Of a stretch of DNA of 31,188 nt, positions 3 to 13,723 are shown one piece after another (the stretch's first letter is position 1; every line of letters starts with the position of its first letter). This stretch comes from Rhodothermales bacterium. Its GTDB lineage: Bacteria; Bacteroidota; Rhodothermia; Rhodothermales; DATGCC01. The position numbers were made by a program, and so were the translations under genes. The stretch lies in NCBI GenBank assembly GCA_035312345.1, contig DATGCC010000534.1, positions 1 to 31,188 on the forward strand, in the 5' to 3' direction. The notes under the pieces were generated by a model. It did not search any database. It worked only from the letters and a program-made list of their open reading frames with translations, and was not told where the DNA came from.

Positions 3-1091
3 GATTACACCGAGTTGCTTCCGCTGGTCCATGATGGCGTGAAAAGTCGGGCCTCCCAACGCCTACTGGCAAAAGACCGGAATGTCTACCTGACCATTGA
101 TGCACGCCTGCAAAAGCGCGTGGCCGATGTCATCCATGACCGGGTCCGGGCCGACCCAAACCTGCGGGGTCGCTTCATCTCGGCGGCGGTGCTGGATGTA
201 GCCACGGGCGATGTGCTGGCTTCCGTAACGTATCCCCTCCCAGACAGCGTCGCCGATTACCTCAATCCAGCCTATTTCGACCGGGCCGCCTATGCAACCA
301 GAGCGCCGGGCTCCACTTTCAAGCTGGCAACAGCGATGGCGGGCTACCGCACACTGGGCGACAACGTGGACACCTGGACCACCAACACCGTGCCCGGCGT
401 GCTGCTACCGTTGGCAATTGAGCAATCCAATAACGCCTACTTCAGTGCCCTCGCCTATGAAGCGGGACCCGACGCCATGCTAGATGTGATTGAAACGTTT
501 GGCTTCACCGTGTGGCGTGATGGGCTGACCCGTGCGCAAAAGCTGACGCGGCTGCGGCGTGACCTCAACGACCGTGCACAGACGGGCTTCGGACAGGGCG
601 AGTTGGCTGGCAGTCCCTTGTTGGTAGCCCGCCTCGCCGCTACCGTCGCCAACGATGGCAAGATGCCGCCCATCAACTGGCTCCGCGACCAGGGCGAGCC
701 ACCCAGCGCTGCTGTGTCTGTTATCACGCCAGCGCAAGCCCGCCGCCTCGGGGCCTACATGCGGCAGGTCGTTGTTGGATCGCGTGGCACGGCCCGACGC
801 ACGTTGGGCAACCACGGCTTAGCCATTGCAGGCAAGACAGGCACCGCCGAGCAAATTGGGCAGAGCCGCCGACGGGTCAACAATGCGTGGTTTACGGGCT
901 TTGCGCCGTATCGCGAGGTACCAAACGGCGCGCCTCAGATTGCCGTAGCGGTGCTGATCGAAGCCAAACCCACGGACCGGGGCGGGCAAAAGCTGGGCGG
1001 CGGCAGCGATGCCGCGCCTATCGCCGGATCGATTTTCGATGAGGCGGTCGGGTTGGGCATCATTCGCCGGGCTATTCCCTCCCTGCGATGA
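3..1091 (+). CDS. Penicillin-binding protein, transpeptidase domain (PbpA/class B-like); 5'-truncated by the window edge
   Basis: The frame is open from base 3 (DYTELLPLVHDG...). All three active-site motifs are present: SxxK (STFK, 312-323), SxN (SNN, 426-434) and KTG (834-842). The segments GFGQGEL...PL.VAR and NAWFTGFAP...IAVAVLIE are typical of class B PBPs. Confidence 0.92.
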   Translation, partial: DYTELLPLVHDGVKSRASQRLLAKDRNVYLTIDARLQKRVADVIHDRVRADPNLRGRFISAAVLDVATGDVLASVTYPLPDSVADYLNPAYFDRAAYATRAPGSTFKLATAMAGYRTLGDNVDTWTTNTVPGVLLPLAIEQSNNAYFSALAYEAGPDAMLDVIETFGFTVWRDGLTRAQKLTRLRRDLNDRAQTGFGQGELAGSPLLVARLAATVANDGKMPPINWLRDQGEPPSAAVSVITPAQARRLGAYMRQVVVGSRGTARRTLGNHGLAIAGKTGTAEQIGQSRRRVNNAWFTGFAPYREVPNGAPQIAVAVLIEAKPTDRGGQKLGGGSDAAPIAGSIFDEAVGLGIIRRAIPSLR

Positions 1092-1139: not shown

Positions 1140-2642
1140 ATGTCCCCCTCTGATATCGACTCGCAATCCCGCATAGATCAAGCGCTGGCACGCCTGCACG
1201 AAGCGCTGACACCCTATGTGGCCGATGCTATGCAGGAGACTTTCGGTGAGGCATGGGCACAGGCGGCTCAGGAAGGACTTCGCGATCCCTATTTGCAACA
1301 GAAATCATGGGACCTAGAAGCCCTGCTGCTCATCATCACCAACAACTGGGCCTCTGCTTTTCAGGGCCGCCTCGGCGAGGTAGGCAAAATCCTCGTCGGC
1401 GAAGTGCGCACCCTTCAACGATCCGAGGCTCTGCTGAACCTCAACGACGCTTATCGCGCCCTCGACACCATGGCACGCCTGCTTCGTCTGCTCGGCGACG
1501 ACGATCGCGCCGACCACGTCCGCAACGAAGCGCTGGCGATGATGCAGCTTCAGTTTCAACAGCCTAGCCCGTCTGCCCCGCCGCCCGAACCCGCCGACAG
1601 TACGATCCCACCTCCTATTCCAGCGAATCCAACTCCAGAGAACAGTGATAACACGCCATCGGCTGATAGCGCAGACGCTGATGCAACCGAGGAGGCATCA
1701 ACAGAGAACGCAGAAGCTGCCAGCAAACAGGAAGAGGCTGATGCTTCGCAACCCAAAGAAACAACCGATGACGACGGGTGGGGTGACGAGGACGAGCCTG
1801 ACGATGAAGATGAGCCTGACAACCGCGAGCGCGGGCCGGGCCTCTTAGAGAAGGCAGGCGGATGGCTACGGGGTATCCGGTCCAGAAAAGCAGACGACCA
1901 TCTGGCTCCGCTGGAGTTGCGGACGCGCCTGCTGGATGCAGTGGAAGACACCCTGGCAGAACACCGTGCCAAACGCCCGCTCCCCTACGACCGGGTGACG
2001 GTGCACATCCTCGCAACAGACCATCGGCTGTATCATCGATACGATGACGCTCTCAAGGAAATCGAGCCGCCCTTCCAGGTTGCTGTGCCCAACCGCCTCC
2101 ACGATGCCGGCTTCGAGCCGCTCCCCACGCTTTCTGTCAAATACGAAATCCACAAAACGGCTCCCAAAAAGCTGGCGGCCGCCTTCGAGAAGTATGGGCC
2201 GGTCTATGTAGAATATGACCGACACCAGGCCAAGCGACAATCCTCGGCGTGGCTCACCGTCGTTACAGGGGAGGCCGAAGAAAGCGAGTACCGTATTCGA
2301 AGCAACCAGCGCTTCAACGTGGGCCGTTTGAAAGAGGTGCGCGAAGGCAGCTATGGCCACCTCATCCGACGCAACGACATTGCCTTTCTCGGCGATGACA
2401 CCCCCGGCCTGGACGCCGACACCCGCGCCATCAACAACACCGTCTCGCGCAAGCATGCCCGCATCGAATACGACGAAAGCTCCGGCCAGTTTGCGCTACA
2501 CAAAGTCGAGGGCGACACGTTCGTGAGCCGACCCGGACGCGGGGCGCGGGTGCAGGTGCTCTATCAGCCTATCACGCTGGAAGATGGCGACCTGATCTAC
2601 CTCGGTAGCGCCTGCCTCCGCTTCAACACGAGAAAACGGTAA
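1140..2642 (+). CDS. FHA-domain protein: N-terminal Swt1-like HEPN domain, acidic/Pro-rich linker, FhaA/DUF3662-like domain, C-terminal FHA
   Basis: FHA motifs are GR (NVGRLK), SRKH (TVSRKHARI) and LEDGDLIYLG. The N-terminus (ALARLHEALTPYV...WDLEALL...W...F...LG...DAYRALDTMARLL) follows the Swt1-like HEPN pattern. ATG 1140 is preferred over TTG 1128. Confidence 0.85.
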   Translation: MSPSDIDSQSRIDQALARLHEALTPYVADAMQETFGEAWAQAAQEGLRDPYLQQKSWDLEALLLIITNNWASAFQGRLGEVGKILVGEVRTLQRSEALLNLNDAYRALDTMARLLRLLGDDDRADHVRNEALAMMQLQFQQPSPSAPPPEPADSTIPPPIPANPTPENSDNTPSADSADADATEEASTENAEAASKQEEADASQPKETTDDDGWGDEDEPDDEDEPDNRERGPGLLEKAGGWLRGIRSRKADDHLAPLELRTRLLDAVEDTLAEHRAKRPLPYDRVTVHILATDHRLYHRYDDALKEIEPPFQVAVPNRLHDAGFEPLPTLSVKYEIHKTAPKKLAAAFEKYGPVYVEYDRHQAKRQSSAWLTVVTGEAEESEYRIRSNQRFNVGRLKEVREGSYGHLIRRNDIAFLGDDTPGLDADTRAINNTVSRKHARIEYDESSGQFALHKVEGDTFVSRPGRGARVQVLYQPITLEDGDLIYLGSACLRFNTRKR

Positions 2643-8204: not shown

Positions 8205-9224
8205 CTACGGACGACGTTCAGATGCATTCGAGGAATCCGATAGCACCGCGGGTACTTCTTTTCCAACGGCTGGACCTATCAGATCGATGCGATCCGTCCA
8301 GACGCCGCCAGAGAAGTCGGTGGGCAACTTTGCAAGACGCTTGGGATCATCGAAGCCCTGCGAAAAGCCCTCGCCCTGGTAATCGCCTATCATGAAGACG
8401 CGGGAGCCGACCGCCTCCATCCGCTGGAGGAAACGATCCGGCCAACCCCAGAGCCACGGTGCATAGTTGGCCGGAACCATCACCACGCTACGTTCGCATT
8501 GGGAGGAAACATAGCCCGTCCAGCCGAGGGCTGCGTAGCGGATCAGACACTGCTTGAGCCGACGCCGCCAGATCGTCCGGATGCGTGGTAGCCGCTCTCG
8601 GATCACGCTGACGCCAACCCCACCGCCATAGACCATAATTTGCTCCTGGCGCTCGGGCGAAAGCTCCGCCAATCGATCAGCAAGCAACGCGCCTTCGCTG
8701 GCATCCCCACCTTTCACATCGATGAGGAAGGAACGGTCTGGAAAGGTATGGAGCACTTCTTCCATCGAAGGCATCAGTCCTACGCCCCGCCCGCGAAACG
8801 GGTACGTCTGCCCGCCATCTGCCGTGTAGCCATAGCCGATGTCGAGTGTCTGAAGGCTGTCCAGGGCAAACTCGCGGGTGACACCGGAGCTTTCTGTGCG
8901 GCAATCCACCGTCCAGTCGTGAAAGACAGCAAAGCGGTCGTCGGTGGTGCGATGCACATCGAATTCGACGACATCGGCCCCATAGTCGAACGCCGCCTGC
9001 ATGGAGGGAATCGTGTTTTCGAGATACTCATGTGGCGTCGGCAGCATCCGCGCCGCCGTGCATGTTTCTCCGGTGAGCCCTTCGCGGCTGAAGTCTTGCG
9101 CGACGCCACGGTGTGCGAGCAGAACGGGTTCCGCACCGACTGGATCGGTCAGATGAGATGTGTTGTTCAGATAAACGAAAGCCACAAAAGCAGCAACTAG
9201 GACGGCTCCTACCTTCTTGGTCAT
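8205..9224 (-). CDS. Glycerophosphodiester phosphodiesterase (GDPD) family protein
   Basis: It has an N-terminal hydrophobic anchor and the motifs LAHRG, ENT, EFDVH.T.D and IDVK. Confidence 0.88.
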   Translation of the reverse strand: MTKKVGAVLVAAFVAFVYLNNTSHLTDPVGAEPVLLAHRGVAQDFSREGLTGETCTAARMLPTPHEYLENTIPSMQAAFDYGADVVEFDVHRTTDDRFAVFHDWTVDCRTESSGVTREFALDSLQTLDIGYGYTADGGQTYPFRGRGVGLMPSMEEVLHTFPDRSFLIDVKGGDASEGALLADRLAELSPERQEQIMVYGGGVGVSVIRERLPRIRTIWRRRLKQCLIRYAALGWTGYVSSQCERSVVMVPANYAPWLWGWPDRFLQRMEAVGSRVFMIGDYQGEGFSQGFDDPKRLAKLPTDFSGGVWTDRIDLIGPAVGKEVPAVLSDSSNASERRP

Positions 9225-9413
9225 ACAGGATGTGTGCTGTGTTTATACGATACACCTTAACCACCGAGGGCCAGGGGCTCTTCGCACGTTCAACGCATCC
9301 TTCGTAGTAAGCGTTACAAGGAAAAACGGACCCGCTCTATCTACGCAAAATAAGGCCTCCCGCCGATGCACCGCACGGCCAACCTCGACAAACCCTAGTG
9401 TCCTAGTTGCTTC

Positions 9414-9824
9414 TCAATCCAACACCAGGGGCCCCGAAAAAATCGTTTCATCATGCGCCTTAACAATCACCAGATCCCCTTCTTGTGGTTCATCAAGGGG
9501 CACATTTTGTCTAAGGGAAAATCGGTTTGATCGGTTCTTCTCTGATGGAATGGTATAAATCTTTGTCTCTCCGACGAAAACATCCAGCGGGATATGTTGA
9601 TAGGAAGGATTCAATTCAAAAACACACCCAATGCGCGTGCCTTTTCTCTTCCCACATTCCAACTCAACTTTTCCACGACCGACGCCTTCATTGAAAGGAA
9701 ACTTTACTTCGTAATCCCACACGATGCTTTCACCAAATACAAAAAACACAAAGACTATCGCCCCAACAACCCATACCCATGATGGTACCATAGAAAGCGT
9801 GTTCAAGATGTCTGCAACCTCCAT
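9414..9824 (-). CDS. Hypothetical protein with one N-terminal transmembrane helix
   Basis: This 136-aa ORF has a purine-rich RBS (GAAAGGAAGGG) upstream and a hydrophobic WVWVVGAIVFVFFVFG segment. I recognise no family. Confidence 0.7.
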   Translation of the reverse strand: MEVADILNTLSMVPSWVWVVGAIVFVFFVFGESIVWDYEVKFPFNEGVGRGKVELECGKRKGTRIGCVFELNPSYQHIPLDVFVGETKIYTIPSEKNRSNRFSLRQNVPLDEPQEGDLVIVKAHDETIFSGPLVLD

Positions 9825-9849
9825 TATTCCCTTCCTTTCATAAACGTAT

Positions 9850-9874
9850 CGGCATACCTTGCGTGGGTATACCG
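9850..9874 (-). terminator. Possible hairpin terminator after the VOC gene
   Basis: The minus strand reads CGGTATACC-cacgcaa-GGTATGCCG, a 9-bp stem with one G:U pair, 4 nt after the stop. The U-tract is weak. Confidence 0.3.
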
Positions 9875-9878
9875 CCCC

Positions 9879-10259
9879 TTATCGCTCATGGGGTTCAAAT
9901 AATTCAACAGGATTCCCAGAGGGGTCTTCGAGCAAGATCTGCTTGCCACCATTACCGGAAACTATCTCGTTGCGGAAGTTTGCTCCCTGCTCTTTCAGTT
10001 GCTTCACCTTGGCAGCCAAATCCTCGACCTCAACCTGAATCCGGTTCCAGCCTCCCGGCTCAGGATTCGTGCCATCGGGCATCGCTTGCCCGGCTCCGCC
10101 TGCACCCGGCACATTCAGTAGCAAACGAAGGGCACCATACTGAAGAGCAGCAAATCCTGGTGCTGGGTGCATGAGTACTTCGAAACCCAACAGCTTCTCG
10201 TAAAAGTCAATGGCTACATCAACATCATTGACGATGTATCGAACACGGACACTGCTCAT
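9879..10259 (-). CDS. VOC/glyoxalase family protein
   Basis: Motifs are VRYIVNDVDVAIDFY...LGF and GGKQILLEDPSGNPVELFE. The start is set at MSSVRV (10259). Confidence 0.9.
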   Translation of the reverse strand: MSSVRVRYIVNDVDVAIDFYEKLLGFEVLMHPAPGFAALQYGALRLLLNVPGAGGAGQAMPDGTNPEPGGWNRIQVEVEDLAAKVKQLKEQGANFRNEIVSGNGGKQILLEDPSGNPVELFEPHER

Positions 10260-10352
10260 ATCACGCTTGTTTAAGTTAGCATTGGACCTCATAACGCAAA
10301 AGCTTCGCCGCCGTTCGAGGCTGACTCGATCAATGGCATCGCAAAATAGGCG

Positions 10353-10553
10353 TCATACCGTCCGCTTGCCATCAACGTAGAGTGGGGTCGGTGAACGCAT
10401 AAGCCCTCCCTTGCCCGTGGCAACAGGAAACGCGGCAGAGCAGTTGGTACAGACCCAGGCCAGAATCCAGCCAGGATTTGCCGCCTGGGTTGTCACGTTC
10501 TGCTCCAAGACCAGTGCTTGCGAGCAAAGGGGGCATGGGGGTTTGTTCTTCAT
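10353..10553 (-). CDS. Small 66-aa putative zinc-ribbon protein (CPLC ... CTNC)
   Basis: It has two CxxC motifs and a GAGG 5 nt before ATG 10553. The ORF track extends the frame to 10661. Confidence 0.55.
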   Translation of the reverse strand: MKNKPPCPLCSQALVLEQNVTTQAANPGWILAWVCTNCSAAFPVATGKGGLMRSPTPLYVDGKRTV

Positions 10554-10768
10554 GGGCACCTCTTCGGATTCACCGGACTTGTCAGCACTGACGATCCACA
10601 AGTAACCGACGGGCTTATCAAGCGTTTTGCTCAACATAGCACCCAACAGACATGACCGCAACGCTATTCAGGAAAACGACTTCGGCGTCTACCCTGATAG
10701 CCTTTGTGCGCTTCAACGGAGTAAAACAACATAATGCTCGGCTGCCCCACAAGAGGTAGCGAACGATT

Positions 10769-13723
10769 CTACTGCGTTTGTTCAATGCGGAAACGGTACT
10801 GGCCTGATCCTACTTCATAGATGATACGATTGCCCTCCACGCCCACACGTTTGACGGATGCCGCCTGATCGGCCACCACGGCCCTGCTGCCCTCTACCAC
10901 CGTGATGAGTTCCGGGCTTGGTGCAGGAATATAGACCCACCCCGTGGCATTCGGCGGCACCCGCACTTCAAGTTCCAGGCCTGCCGTCGTTTGCCGCCAG
11001 GCCGTAGCGACAGTGCCTCGGATGCTTTCGTAGGAGACTGCCACCTGATCAAGCGCGGCTGGAATGGCGGGTCGGAAGGCGATTTTTCGGTAGCCCGGTT
11101 CCAGAGGCTGCATACCTGCCAGGTCCTCATACATCCACTGGACAATGGTACCGAAGAAGTGGTGATTACGCGAACGCGATGTGGCCTCCCAGAACTCGCC
11201 CAGGCCCGTCCACTCTAGCTCGTCGATCCAGTAGCCCCAGCTCGGATAGTCGGTCTGCGTTGCCACGGCAAGCGCGACATCGGCGTACCCGGCCTCGGTG
11301 AGCACTGGGAGCACATAGCGGGCTCCCAGGATGCCCACATACGCGTTGTCGCCCCGTTGGCCTGTGATATCGTCCACCAGTCTGGCAGCCAGGTCATCGC
11401 GCAGATGGTCAGGGGCCAGATCGAACGCAAGAGGTAACACCTGCGCCGTATGGGTAAAAGGGCTCGATGTCGTATCGCGGTAGATGCCATCGTCATGCAA
11501 AAAACGGGCATTGAAGTCCGTGCGAATCCGTTCGAAAAGTGCGTCGTAGCGTTCAGCATCAGCAGGCTTGCCGAGCACACGGGCCACCTCGGCAGCGATC
11601 TGCGCAAAGTGCGCGTAGTAGGCCGTGGATGCCAGGGCAATATTGGTCGGCGTGCCCTCTGGGGGATCCCAGTCGCCCAGCCCCGCCGTGAGGGTATAGG
11701 CATAGGCATCGCCATCTTGGTCCGTCCATTGTGGGATCCATTCATCCAGGTACCTCTGCATGGCCGGGTAGGTTTGCTCCAGGGCACGCACATCGCCGTA
11801 ACGCCTGTAGGTCTCCCATGGGATGATGAACCAGAATGCGTCCCACGCCGGCGTCGCTCCGCAACAGTCCTCTGGCTTGAACGCGGGCTTCCCCCAATAG
11901 CCATAGTTCTCATTGCTCGGTGCCAGATGTGGCACTTCGCCCTCGTCGGTCTGCGCGTCGACCATGTCGCGGAACAGCTTCGTGTTGAGTCGCTCGGTGT
12001 CAAACAGGATAGCTGCCGTTCCCACCGTGAGTTGCGCGTCTCCCGTCCAGGCATTTTTCTCGTAGATCGGGGTATCGGTGATGATGCCGTGCGCGTTGCT
12101 TTCCACGGCCCACCGGGTGTTGCGGTGGATCCTGTCGAGTAGCCCCCCGTCTGCCTCGAAGATCGACGTCGCCTCAAAACCAGTCCGCACCTGTTCGATG
12201 GCTTCAACCTCTACTGTTACTGCTTCAGGGAGCGGCTGACCGTCGGGACTGCTGACTTGGACGTACCGGAAGCCTTTGTATGAGAAGCGGGGCGTCCACT
12301 GTTCACTGCCGGAACCCCGAGCGACGTAATAATCGGTTTGCAGTTGACCACCCACCAGCGCAAAGCCGGTCTCGTCGCTGGCCCGCCCGAGACTGTCCAG
12401 CTTCTCGCTATAAAACACCTCGACGGGGGTGCCCACGGGGGCCTCGACCCGGATGCGCGCCCACCCGGTGAGGTTTTGTCCTACATCGTACACGAACACG
12501 CCCGGCGTCGGCTCTGTCCTCGTGCCAGGACCGCGGGTGTCCACAACCCGAATTGGCTCATGTGCCTGTGCCCACACGGCACCCGCCGGCGCGTCTACGA
12601 CCCGCACGGTCGGCCAACCCGATGCATTGAAGCCCGGCTCGTTCCAGCCATGAATCTCGCGCCGGGCATCATAGGTCTCGCCGAGGTAGTAGCTGTCGTA
12701 TCGGGTCGGCCCATCGACACTCACCTTCCAGGAGCCGTCTGAGACGACGACCTCCTCCGTGCTATCGGCGTAGGTAATGTGTAGCTGGAGCCGGAGACGC
12801 GGTGTGGCCCGCCACTCGGCCTGGTCCCAGCCCCAATCCCACGTCCGCGTTGCGCTGTCGTACTGCCCGGATCCCAGTGCTGTGGCGACGACGTTTTCTC
12901 CCTGCCCCAGCAGGCTCGTGACATCATAGGTGGTGTAATAGACCGTCTCGTTGTAGTCCGTGAAGCCGGGATCGAGCACGCTGTCCGAGACCCGGGTGCC
13001 GTTGATGGTCAAATCGTTGTATCCAAGTCCCGTCGCATAGACGCGCGCCTGGGTGATGGGCTTTGTGACTTCAAAGGACGTGCGTAGCATGGGGACCGCT
13101 CTGATCGCCCGGCAGACCCCCTGGTTGTTGGGCACCACGTTGGGGAAAAAGCCCTCAGCAGGCCAGCGTGGTGGTCTGCAAAACTCCCCAGACGCCTGGA
13201 TCCCGGCATCGTCCGCCTCGCCTTCCTCGGGCGTGAGCCGTTCCATCAACCGCTCGGGGCCAGCAATCCAGTTACCCTGCCACAAGTCAGGATCGAGGAG
13301 TGCCATTTCAAACCAGGTCGGCTGCGACGTGCTCTGGATGCCTCTCGTCGTTTGCACGCGAACTGACCAGTAATAGCGGGTCCGAGACACCAGTGCAGGG
13401 CCTGCATACACGATCCAGGGATCACTGGACTGAACCTCCCCGGAATTCCACACGTCTGCCTGGTTTTCGCTCAAAAGCGCTGGGTGAGAAGCCACCAGCA
13501 CCCGGAACGACTGCTGCATCACACCGCGCGCCTCACTTTCGAGCACCCACGACAACCTGGGGTAAGGATCGTGAAGGCCAAGCGGCTCGGAGGCAGCATT
13601 GGTTTCCAGTTGAACGATAGAGAAATCCTCGGAGGACGTGACGGGAATCTGTGCACAGGCGGTGGCCGCTCCCAGTAGCACCGAAATCAGGAGGGTAAGA
13701 AGACGTATGCTGTTCTCTTTCAT
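10769..13723 (-). CDS. Secreted glycoside hydrolase family 78 (alpha-L-rhamnosidase-like)
   Basis: Motifs include PRLSW, TRYYWSVRV, ARVYATGLG, LDPG.TDY...V.Y.TYDVT, D.GQNLTGW, FSYKGFRYVQ, TDTP.YEKNAWTGD, LGDW, EFWE...SRNHHFFG and GTVATAW. The start is set at MKENS (13723); 13747 is an alternative. Confidence 0.92.
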   Translation of the reverse strand: MKENSIRLLTLLISVLLGAATACAQIPVTSSEDFSIVQLETNAASEPLGLHDPYPRLSWVLESEARGVMQQSFRVLVASHPALLSENQADVWNSGEVQSSDPWIVYAGPALVSRTRYYWSVRVQTTRGIQSTSQPTWFEMALLDPDLWQGNWIAGPERLMERLTPEEGEADDAGIQASGEFCRPPRWPAEGFFPNVVPNNQGVCRAIRAVPMLRTSFEVTKPITQARVYATGLGYNDLTINGTRVSDSVLDPGFTDYNETVYYTTYDVTSLLGQGENVVATALGSGQYDSATRTWDWGWDQAEWRATPRLRLQLHITYADSTEEVVVSDGSWKVSVDGPTRYDSYYLGETYDARREIHGWNEPGFNASGWPTVRVVDAPAGAVWAQAHEPIRVVDTRGPGTRTEPTPGVFVYDVGQNLTGWARIRVEAPVGTPVEVFYSEKLDSLGRASDETGFALVGGQLQTDYYVARGSGSEQWTPRFSYKGFRYVQVSSPDGQPLPEAVTVEVEAIEQVRTGFEATSIFEADGGLLDRIHRNTRWAVESNAHGIITDTPIYEKNAWTGDAQLTVGTAAILFDTERLNTKLFRDMVDAQTDEGEVPHLAPSNENYGYWGKPAFKPEDCCGATPAWDAFWFIIPWETYRRYGDVRALEQTYPAMQRYLDEWIPQWTDQDGDAYAYTLTAGLGDWDPPEGTPTNIALASTAYYAHFAQIAAEVARVLGKPADAERYDALFERIRTDFNARFLHDDGIYRDTTSSPFTHTAQVLPLAFDLAPDHLRDDLAARLVDDITGQRGDNAYVGILGARYVLPVLTEAGYADVALAVATQTDYPSWGYWIDELEWTGLGEFWEATSRSRNHHFFGTIVQWMYEDLAGMQPLEPGYRKIAFRPAIPAALDQVAVSYESIRGTVATAWRQTTAGLELEVRVPPNATGWVYIPAPSPELITVVEGSRAVVADQAASVKRVGVEGNRIIYEVGSGQYRFRIEQTQ

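What the first reader, a model, noticed from the sequence alone, without database searches (positions are those of the whole stretch)
1140..1562. Catalytically dead Swt1-like HEPN domain fused to an FhaA-like phospho-threonine reader
Seen: the N-terminal ~140 aa match the Swt1-like HEPN pattern I recall from DUF499-type defence ATPases (AL..L...L.P(F/Y)V...G..W; WD..ALL...W...F...LG; DAYRALD...RLL). The RNase motif RxxxxH (typically RNxWAH) is replaced by EVRTLQRSE (1401-1427), with no His. Known: HEPN domains dimerise and act as RNases in toxin-antitoxin and anti-phage systems. Inference: a defence-derived domain was repurposed as a dimerisation or ligand-binding module on a cell-wall phospho-signalling adaptor, or acts as a decoy. 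I do not know this architecture from characterised proteins.
Basis: partly seen in the sequence, partly recalled or inferred. Interest (0 to 1): 0.75.

Follow-up and report, generated by a model that had tools for sequence, protein, structure and literature searches.

The report
Motif-less HEPN on a cell-wall FHA adaptor
This Rhodothermales gene, the last in a cell-wall synthesis and protein-kinase operon, encodes a phosphothreonine-binding adaptor whose N-terminal RNase-type (HEPN) domain has lost its catalytic histidine but is still conserved, while sister lineages keep the intact motif or lack the domain.

Summary
Window 1140-2642 (+) encodes a 500-aa protein. Residues 14-118 match Pfam HEPN_Swt1 at 58 bits (cut-off 27.5), and the RNxWAH block is replaced by EVRTLQRSEAL, with no His. 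An FHA domain closes the protein (Z up to 12.3 to solved FHA domains). A middle domain has an FhaA_N-like fold that sequence profiles do not detect.

The interpretation needs correction. The gene always follows a fused RodA-PBP synthase in operons with PP2C phosphatase and Ser/Thr kinases. It is an order-restricted (Rhodothermales) counterpart of mycobacterial FhaA. Most members of the family keep an intact Rx4H (RKRWAH or RNxxAH). Only the window's subclade lost it, probably once. Other lineages lack the HEPN domain altogether. So the domain was recruited in an active-looking form and inactivated later.

The dead domain is not decaying. Its dN/dS is 0.09, and every conserved core position outside the catalytic block is kept. 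A homodimer prediction passes (0.44 against a best control of 0.00) through the former motif helices.

Best reading: a non-catalytic dimerisation or binding module on a phospho-dependent cell-wall scaffold. It is a new variant of known kinds and of moderate interest. No paper naming both FhaA and HEPN was found.

The parts
3..1091 (+). 3' part (transpeptidase domain) of a fused CarboxypepD_reg-RodA/FtsW-class B PBP gene. The contig starts inside the gene.
   Evidence: PF00905 Transpeptidase at 125 bits. The 5' part lies on own-genome contig C42. Full-length 1223-1282-aa fusions sit directly upstream in all relatives.
1140..2642 (+). HEPN(motif-less)-linker-FhaA_N-like-FHA gene, 500 aa, last gene of the operon. 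It lies 48 bp after the PBP stop codon, and the next gene is convergent.
   Evidence: No promoter-like or terminator-like site in the gap.
1179..1493 (+). Swt1-like HEPN domain (residues 14-118 by Pfam; helical domain 8-139 in the model).
   Evidence: PF18731 at 58.4 bits, cut-off 27.5. Helices 8-45, 59-94, 101-117 and 121-139 at pLDDT about 85-90. Structural matches of residues 4-157 to HEPN_Swt1 clusters.
1401..1433 (+). Degenerate catalytic block, E88-L98 (EVRTLQRSEAL), in place of ELRxxRNxWAHQ. It contains no His.
   Evidence: Alignments to about 150 HEPN_Swt1 proteins. The stretch is hypervariable within the dead clade.
1575..1889 (+). Acidic, Pro/Ser/Thr-rich disordered linker (residues 146-250).
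   Evidence: pLDDT 25-49. dN/dS 0.36 against about 0.1 in the domains. Length varies among homologues.
1896..2225 (+). Alpha/beta middle domain (residues 253-362) with an FhaA_N-like fold.
   Evidence: Domain model pLDDT 91.7. Best AFDB Swiss-Prot match is M. tuberculosis FhaA residues 23-129, probability 0.92, TM 0.47. AFDB cluster matches are the N-terminal parts of FHA proteins, TM 0.76-0.80. 2LC0 scores Z 4.6. There is no sequence-profile hit.
2235..2633 (+). FHA domain (residues 366-498). Phosphothreonine-binding G395-R396 (nt 2322-2327) and S436-x-x-H439 (nt 2445-2456) are conserved. A family-specific insert of about 40 aa lies between them.
   Evidence: PF00498. Z 10-12 to solved FHA domains. 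Residue conservation.

Best explanation
The gene encodes an FhaA-type scaffold of a Ser/Thr-kinase-controlled peptidoglycan synthesis module. Shown: it is the last gene of an operon that holds a PP2C phosphatase, one to three Ser/Thr kinases and a fused RodA-PBP synthase. It has a C-terminal FHA domain with the phosphate-contacting Arg, Ser and His intact. An FhaA_N-like alpha/beta domain directly precedes the FHA domain. An N-terminal Swt1-like HEPN domain is joined through a disordered acidic linker of about 105 aa. Shown: in this subclade the HEPN domain has lost the catalytic His (and the Asn and Gln) of the Rx4H RNase motif, but it keeps the rest of the fold under purifying selection. Sister lineages keep the motif or lack the domain. 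Inferred: the FHA domain docks on phosphothreonines written by the operon's kinases and erased by the PP2C. The motif-less HEPN domain no longer cuts RNA. It still forms the usual HEPN homodimer through the helices that once carried the active site, so the adaptor is bivalent and can bridge two phosphorylated partners or two synthase complexes. The conserved cleft residues E88, R106, D109 and R113 may also still bind a nucleic acid or nucleotide ligand.
For: Domain calls: HEPN_Swt1 58.4 bits and FHA 26.5 bits. FHA fold Z up to 12.3, and FhaA's own FHA Z 10.8. Middle-domain model pLDDT 91.7, with FhaA 23-129 as best match among reviewed proteins, and FhaA_N clusters nearest in the atlas. Operon: PP2C, 3 kinases, RodA-PBP, then this gene; the same logic. 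The PBP gene lies directly upstream in all 25 loci. In the own genome, a kinase Sel1/TPR tail and the RodA part are on contig C42. Motif loss: all 7 clade members lack the His. Only the N, H, Q and F of RNxWAHQxxF are lost among the canonically conserved columns. Selection: window against P0002, dN/dS is 0.09 for HEPN, 0.12 for the middle domain, 0.08 for FHA and 0.36 for the linker. Dimer: ipSAE 0.44 against a best control of 0.00. That mark was reached by 21 of 30 proteins solved as pairs of one chain and 0 of 23 solved as single chains. The interface is residues 80-91, 102-113 and 128-139, including the invariant E80, E88, R106, D109 and R113. No PADLOC or defence context. FhaA is described as a two-domain tethering scaffold in the equivalent mycobacterial operon (PMC11898655).
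Against: No experiment exists; loss of activity is inferred from the motif alone. The dimer is a prediction that may partly reflect memory of solved HEPN dimers. HEPN-less versions of the same gene exist (own-genome contig C702, G106, G263-265), so the domain is dispensable for the core adaptor function in some lineages. The middle domain's link to FhaA_N is only at fold level (TM 0.47, Z 4.6 to the solved or reviewed FhaA). The phosphorylated partner is unknown. The canonical FHA Asn is not conserved, and a 40-aa insert sits in the FHA domain.
Confidence: 0.55

Rival explanations
1. The motif-less HEPN domain is a non-catalytic RNA- or nucleotide-binding sensor rather than (or besides) a dimeriser. 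It would couple the cell-wall adaptor to an RNA or nucleotide signal, as proposed for the inactive HEPN of eukaryotic Swt1.
For: Canonically conserved polar residues lining the former active-site cleft (E88, R106, D109, R113, R/K83) remain invariant or nearly so in the dead clade. PMC3710099 argues that inactive HEPN versions act as nucleic-acid-binding domains and lists Swt1 itself as inactive.
Against: No binding data exist. The loop that replaces the motif is hypervariable among clade members (RTLQRSEA, LTRREQDM, LAFRRRPT, RALRNQDA, RALHTQGT), which is unexpected for a specific ligand site. The same conserved residues lie in the predicted dimer interface, so dimerisation alone may explain their conservation.
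Confidence: 0.2
2. The domain is a relic on its way to being lost. After inactivation it has no function of its own, and the HEPN-less genes show the end state.
For: HEPN-less forms of the gene occupy the same operon position in the own bin (C702), G106 and G263-265. The catalytic block is degenerate and variable.
Against: dN/dS of 0.09 in the HEPN domain equals that of the FHA and middle domains and is four-fold below the linker. The domain is 52-61% identical across clade members, which is as conserved as or more conserved than the middle domain. All core positions are kept. There are no frameshifts or stops in 7 members.
Confidence: 0.1
3. The domain is still an RNase that uses substitute residues (for example R90/R94 with another general acid or base).
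For: Some HEPN families lacking R or H keep activity through other residues (PMC3710099). An Arg can be aligned at the catalytic Arg position in most clade members (R90 in the window).
Against: No His or other conserved candidate is shared by the clade in or near the motif. The Asn and Gln of the motif are lost as well. The block differs in every member, unlike an active site.
Confidence: 0.05
4. The protein is a decoy or anti-defence/defence component derived from a HEPN toxin.
For: HEPN_Swt1 domains mostly occur in defence-type proteins (DUF499 ATPases, RNase III fusions, STAND NTPases).
Against: There are no PADLOC hits. The gene order is strictly conserved behind a peptidoglycan synthase with kinases and phosphatase in all loci. 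No neighbouring restriction, toxin-antitoxin or mobile-element genes are present. The own genome (87% complete) has no other HEPN_Swt1 gene to decoy for.
Confidence: 0.03

Closest known systems
FhaA (Rv0020c) of Mycobacterium tuberculosis and the fhaA-fhaB-pstP-rodA-pbpA-pknA-pknB operon
   Same: Both have a C-terminal FHA domain with phosphothreonine-binding residues, a small alpha/beta domain of FhaA_N-like fold, and a long disordered linker. Both are encoded with RodA, a class B PBP, a PP2C phosphatase and Ser/Thr kinases. FhaA is viewed as a tethering scaffold (PMC11898655).
   Different: This protein has an extra N-terminal HEPN_Swt1 domain. Its disordered linker lies between HEPN and the FhaA_N-like domain, not between FhaA_N and FHA, which are contiguous here. 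No sequence-profile match to PF12401 was found. Here RodA and PBP are fused into one protein. The host is a diderm of the order Rhodothermales, not an actinobacterium.
Intact-motif HEPN-FhaA_N-like-FHA proteins of other Rhodothermales and metagenomes (P0021, P0080, P0132, G070 gene; more distantly P0031 with a Pfam-detectable FhaA_N)
   Same: Same three-domain architecture and same position after RodA-PBP in PP2C/kinase operons.
   Different: They keep Rx4H (RKRWAH, RNxxAH) and are therefore candidate RNases. The window's clade has lost the His.
Swt1-like HEPN family (Pfam PF18731; Ava_2192/DUF499 ATPases, eukaryotic Swt1)
   Same: Clear profile membership and the same conserved core. Eukaryotic Swt1 is a precedent for an inactive HEPN kept as a binding module (PMC3710099).
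   Different: Typical bacterial members are active-motif domains in defence-type proteins. Among 138 close representatives only 4 carry FHA.
KEN domains of Ire1 and RNase L (HEPN superfamily RNases fused to kinase modules)
   Same: A HEPN-type domain is wired to Ser/Thr phospho-signalling, and dimerisation is central to its function (established knowledge; PMC3710099 classifies KEN as HEPN).
   Different: KEN is fused directly to a kinase domain and is catalytically active. Here the link runs through an FHA reader in a kinase operon, and the window's copy lacks the catalytic His. This is an analogy, not homology beyond the superfamily.
SEDS-bPBP chimeric synthases flanked by Ser/Thr kinase and phosphatase genes
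   Same: The upstream gene is such a chimera, as described across bacteria including a Bacteroidota example (PMC12516126).
   Different: That survey does not mention FHA or HEPN partners.

Membership tests
HEPN_Swt1 (PF18731) | Profile match above the curated gathering score | tested here: met
   58.4 bits against 27.5, profile positions 1-114 of 115. Also 60.6 bits in the genome scan.
HEPN_Swt1 (PF18731) | Rx4-6H catalytic motif (RNxWAH in this family) | tested here: not met
   No His in the block. Asn and Gln are also lost. The same holds in all 7 members of the subclade. The family is described as only 'partly conserved' for this motif (PMC3710099), so membership stands but activity does not.
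HEPN_Swt1 (PF18731) | All-alpha HEPN fold | tested here: met
   Predicted helices 8-45, 59-94, 101-117 and 121-139 at high pLDDT. Residues 4-157 align structurally to three HEPN_Swt1 clusters in the atlas. No solved HEPN_Swt1 structure is detectable by sequence. No domain-only PDB fold search was possible.
HEPN_Swt1 (PF18731) | Homodimer through the motif-bearing helices | tested here: met
   In silico only: score 0.44 against a best control of 0.00, a mark reached by 21 of 30 proteins solved as pairs of one chain and 0 of 23 solved as single chains.
FhaA (Rv0020c-type adaptor) | C-terminal FHA domain with phosphothreonine-binding Arg, Ser and His | tested here: met
   PF00498. Z 10.8 to 3oun, the FhaA FHA domain. 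GR and SxxH are invariant in the family.
FhaA (Rv0020c-type adaptor) | FhaA_N (PF12401) globular domain | tested here: inconclusive
   Sequence evidence is negative: no Pfam hit at E up to 10 in 24 members, and hhalign probability 0.07. Fold evidence is supportive: best Swiss-Prot model is FhaA 23-129 (probability 0.92, TM 0.47); AFDB clusters of FHA and FhaA_N proteins; 2LC0 at Z 4.6 and E 0.15; atlas leads.
FhaA (Rv0020c-type adaptor) | Encoded with RodA, a bPBP, a PP2C phosphatase and Ser/Thr kinases | tested here: met
   In the window itself only the PBP end is visible because the contig starts there.
FhaA (Rv0020c-type adaptor) | Long unstructured linker between the N-terminal domain and FHA | tested here: not met
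   The FhaA_N-like domain (253-362) and FHA (366-498) are contiguous. The 105-aa disordered linker lies between HEPN and the middle domain.
HEPN defence or toxin systems (DUF499-type, HEPN-MNT and the like) | Defence-island or toxin-antitoxin gene context, or matches to defence models | tested here: not met
   No PADLOC match. The context is a conserved cell-wall operon.

The most novel reading that the evidence does not exclude
The HEPN-FhaA_N-like-FHA family as a whole would be a bacterial counterpart of the Ire1/RNase L logic. In the intact-motif members, kinase-written phosphothreonines would recruit and dimerise a HEPN RNase at the peptidoglycan synthase, coupling cell-wall status to RNA cleavage. 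The window's protein would be the pseudo-enzyme derivative that keeps the assembly or RNA-binding role without cleavage.
Probability: 0.2. Interest if true: 0.8.

Novelty: new variant of a known kind. Interest (0 to 1): 0.5.

Why it matters
FHA adaptors such as FhaA are central but poorly understood organisers of kinase-controlled cell-wall growth, and they have been studied almost only in Actinobacteria. This work shows an order-wide counterpart in Rhodothermales, a diderm lineage. It is tied to a fused RodA-PBP synthase and carries an RNase-type HEPN domain in three natural states: intact motif, motif lost under purifying selection, and domain absent. That series is a ready-made comparative experiment on what a HEPN domain contributes to a cell-wall scaffold. 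It also documents a housekeeping recruitment of a domain otherwise typical of defence systems. The specific window copy is the inactivated form, so its own interest is moderate.

Tried and rejected
- NCBIfam and PADLOC scans of the protein found nothing useful.
- The full-length fold searches were swamped by FHA matches and said nothing on the other domains.
- A profile of the middle domain against PDB sequences and Pfam gave only noise.
- hhalign of the middle domain against the FhaA_N region of P0031 showed no similarity.
- A homologue search with the C-terminal part of P0031, meant to collect canonical FhaA_N proteins, returned only the query.
- The search for related loci with the broad alignment failed for lack of conserved stretches. 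With the narrow alignment it gave one named genome, a Rhodothermales MAG.
- A profile of 138 HEPN_Swt1 proteins found no solved structure.
- No paper holds both 'FhaA' and 'HEPN'.
- The decoy reading and the active-toxin reading were considered and rejected on context and motif evidence.
- P0003, P0007 and L020 looked HEPN-less, but they sit at contig edges, so I did not count them as true losses.
- Whether contigs C702 and C988 belong to the same organism as the window could not be settled.
- No RNA genes lie in the window.

Full report
**The gene and the observation**

The finding lies in one ORF, window 1128/1140-2642 on the + strand. The ATG at 1140 gives a 500-aa protein (P0001). Its closest homologue (83% identity) starts at the same place.

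Pfam places a Swt1-like HEPN domain (PF18731) on residues 14-118. It scores 58.4 bits against a gathering score of 27.5 and covers 114 of 115 profile positions. An FHA domain (PF00498, 26.5 bits against 20.7) lies on residues 428-489.

Nt 1401-1427 do encode EVRTLQRSE (E88-E96). A search of 1.84 billion representative proteins with residues 1-145 gave 302 hits at E up to 0.001. Aligned, the canonical members read ELRxxRNxWAHQxxFxxDDxYRALDS. The window protein reads EVRTLQRSEALLNLNDAYRALDT, with no histidine and 2-3 fewer residues.

**The dead state is shared by a clade and limited to the catalytic block**

Only six relatives of the whole protein exist in a 5.8-billion-protein collection. All that cover the region lack the His: RREQDMP, FRRRPTP, LRNQDAP, and RALHTQG in a further genome.

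I compared the columns that are at least 70% conserved in canonical HEPN_Swt1. The dead clade keeps essentially all of them: A15, L19, L23, P25, V27, G36, W39, D58, L62, L63, W70, F74, L78, G79, V86, E88, R106, L108, D109, R113, L114, L115. It has lost only the Asn, His, Gln and Phe of RNxWAHQxxF.

Nei-Gojobori dN/dS between the window gene and its 83%-identical relative:

| Region | dN/dS |
|---|---|
| HEPN domain | 0.09 |
| Middle domain | 0.12 |
| FHA domain | 0.08 |
| Disordered linker | 0.36 |

Deeper pairs show the HEPN domain as conserved as the other domains. So the domain has lost its catalytic signature but is not drifting.

**The rest of the protein**

The AlphaFold model shows four parts:
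- a helical domain, residues 8-139;
- a disordered acidic Pro/Ser/Thr-rich linker, residues 145-250;
- an alpha/beta domain, residues 257-361;
- a beta sandwich, residues 369-497.

The sandwich is an FHA fold beyond doubt. It scores Z up to 12.3, and Z 10.8 to the FHA domain of mycobacterial FhaA. The phosphate-binding G395-R396 and S436-x-x-H439 are invariant in the family. The canonical Asn is not conserved, and an insert of about 40 aa separates the two loops.

The middle domain has no sequence-profile match to anything, including FhaA_N. Folded alone on a 24-sequence alignment it gives a confident model (pLDDT 91.7, pTM 0.83).
- Among 550,000 reviewed proteins, its best structural match is M. 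tuberculosis FhaA residues 23-129, the FhaA N-terminal domain (probability 0.92, TM 0.47).
- In AlphaFold DB clusters, its best matches are the regions N-terminal to FHA in FHA proteins (TM 0.76-0.80, E 4.8e-4), plus entries named FhaA N-terminal domain.
- The solved NMR structure 2LC0 appears at Foldseek rank 3 (E 0.15) and at VIA Z 4.6 over the whole domain.
- The protein atlas independently points to FhaA_N clusters.

I read this as an FhaA_N-like fold. It is supported at fold level only.

**Genomic context**

The window contig starts inside the upstream gene, whose visible part is a class B PBP transpeptidase. In relatives, that gene is a 1223-1282-aa fusion of a CarboxypepD_reg-like region, RodA/FtsW and the PBP. 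It is preceded by a PP2C phosphatase and one to three Ser/Thr kinases.

In a complete genome of the same order, the co-directional gene order is: kinase-WD40, a sigma-54-type AAA+ protein, an SLT/LysM transglycosylase, an FHA protein, PP2C, RodA-PBP, then HEPN-middle-FHA. The PBP end lies directly upstream on the same strand in all 25 loci examined.

In the window's own genome, the RodA part and the Sel1/TPR tail of a kinase are on contig C42. The 48-bp gap before the gene has no promoter-like or terminator-like site, and the next gene is convergent. There is no defence signature. This is the gene content of the actinobacterial fhaA-fhaB-pstP-rodA-pbpA-pknA-pknB operon (PMC11898655). SEDS-bPBP chimeras flanked by kinase and phosphatase genes have been described, without mention of FHA or HEPN partners (PMC12516126).

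The same architecture exists with an intact motif.
- P0021 (RNKKAH), P0080 and P0132 (RKRWAH), P0020 (RNLWAH) and P0019 (RNAWAH) share the middle and/or FHA domains and the operon position.
- A more distant protein, P0031, has HEPN_Swt1, a Pfam-detectable FhaA_N and FHA. It sits in a PP2C, kinase, FHA, [this type], small FHA, RodA, PBP operon.

The one named relative is a Rhodothermales MAG. A survey of 285 genomes of the window's order found 12 with HEPN, middle and FHA domains in one ORF. Nine of them carry E(V/I)RK(R/K)WAHQ, a valid Rx4H. Only the window's genome and two others are motif-less. Five further genomes, and a second contig of the window's own bin, have the middle and FHA domains without HEPN. 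For one of those genomes (L020) the gene starts at a contig edge.

Two trees bear on the history:
- On a tree of the shared middle+FHA region, the RKRWAH proteins form one clade (100/100). The dead and HEPN-less forms lie outside it, unresolved.
- On a HEPN tree built without the motif columns, the dead proteins are monophyletic (90/75). They sit inside a 99/98 clade with the three RNxxAH proteins.

The most economical history is therefore as follows. An active-looking HEPN_Swt1 domain joined the adaptor early in this order. It was inactivated once in the window's lineage. It was lost outright in others.

The middle domain was found only within the order among 401 genomes sampled from the phylum. 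Only 4 of 138 close HEPN_Swt1 representatives carry FHA. No atlas cluster of 50 or more members has the fusion. No paper holding both FhaA and HEPN was found.

**How it most likely works**

These parts are shown: the domain set, the conserved FHA binding residues, the operon, the motif loss and the purifying selection.

These parts are inferred. The FHA domain reads phosphothreonines made by the operon's kinases and removed by its PP2C, as FhaA does. The HEPN domain, no longer a nuclease, serves as a dimerisation module.

A homodimer prediction of residues 1-145 passed: score 0.44, best of three controls 0.00. That mark was reached by 21 of 30 proteins solved as pairs of one chain and 0 of 23 solved as single chains. 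The interface uses residues 80-91, 102-113 and 128-139. These are the helices flanking the former motif, and they include the invariant E80, E88, R106, D109 and R113. This is the usual HEPN dimer geometry, so the pass may partly reflect likeness to solved dimers.

A dimeric adaptor with two FHA heads on long flexible linkers could bridge two phosphorylated partners or two synthases. Retained binding of RNA or a nucleotide in the conserved cleft is a live alternative or addition (PMC3710099 on inactive HEPN domains). A relic, a residual nuclease and a decoy are each unlikely, for the reasons given under the rival explanations. The own genome (87% complete) has no second HEPN_Swt1 gene, so a pseudo-enzyme regulating an active paralogue is not supported.

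**Verdict**

The protein is a member of HEPN_Swt1 by profile, without the catalytic motif. It is FhaA-like by FHA domain, operon and fold, but not by sequence profile or linker placement. It is a new variant of known kinds: a cell-wall FHA adaptor carrying a HEPN domain, here in its inactivated state. The family as a whole, with its intact, dead and absent states, is more interesting than this single copy.

Noticed in passing
window 3-1091, with own-genome contig C42 (L033): The upstream gene is a fusion of about 1220 aa: a CarboxypepD_reg-like region, RodA/FtsW and a class B PBP. It is split here by a contig break. This fusion is present in all relatives of the order that were examined.
   Followed up: partly
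own-genome contigs C988 (L037) and C702 (L030 2675-3529): There is a second, parallel operon in the same genome bin: FHA protein (382 aa), PP2C, Ser/Thr kinase, RodA-PBP fusion, and a 284-aa middle+FHA protein with no HEPN domain. No other genome searched has both versions, so true paralogy against a mixed bin remains open.
   Followed up: partly
L007 7003-8796 (protein P0031): A 597-aa protein from an unrelated metagenome has an unknown 160-aa N-terminal region, an intact HEPN_Swt1, a Pfam-detectable FhaA_N and FHA. It sits in a classic PP2C, kinase, FHA, FhaA-like, FhaB-like, RodA, PBP operon next to CHAT/Trypco2 genes. The HEPN-FhaA fusion may have arisen more than once or spread beyond one order.
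   Followed up: partly
window 2322-2456 (residues 395-439): The FHA domain of this family has an insert of about 40 aa with low model confidence between the Gly-Arg and Ser-x-x-His loops. It also lacks the canonical Asn. Its peptide specificity may be unusual.
   Followed up: no
window 9000-10800: This stretch is low in G+C (0.495 against about 0.60). It has only small ORFs (for example a 137-aa ORF at 9879-10292 on the minus strand) and no tRNA or Rfam match.
   Followed up: partly
L004 12360-20332: In the metagenomic relative that carries P0021, a contractile injection system gene set (Pvc16_N, sheath, gp19-like tube, CIS_tube, VgrG-like) starts about 2 kb downstream of the operon.
   Followed up: no
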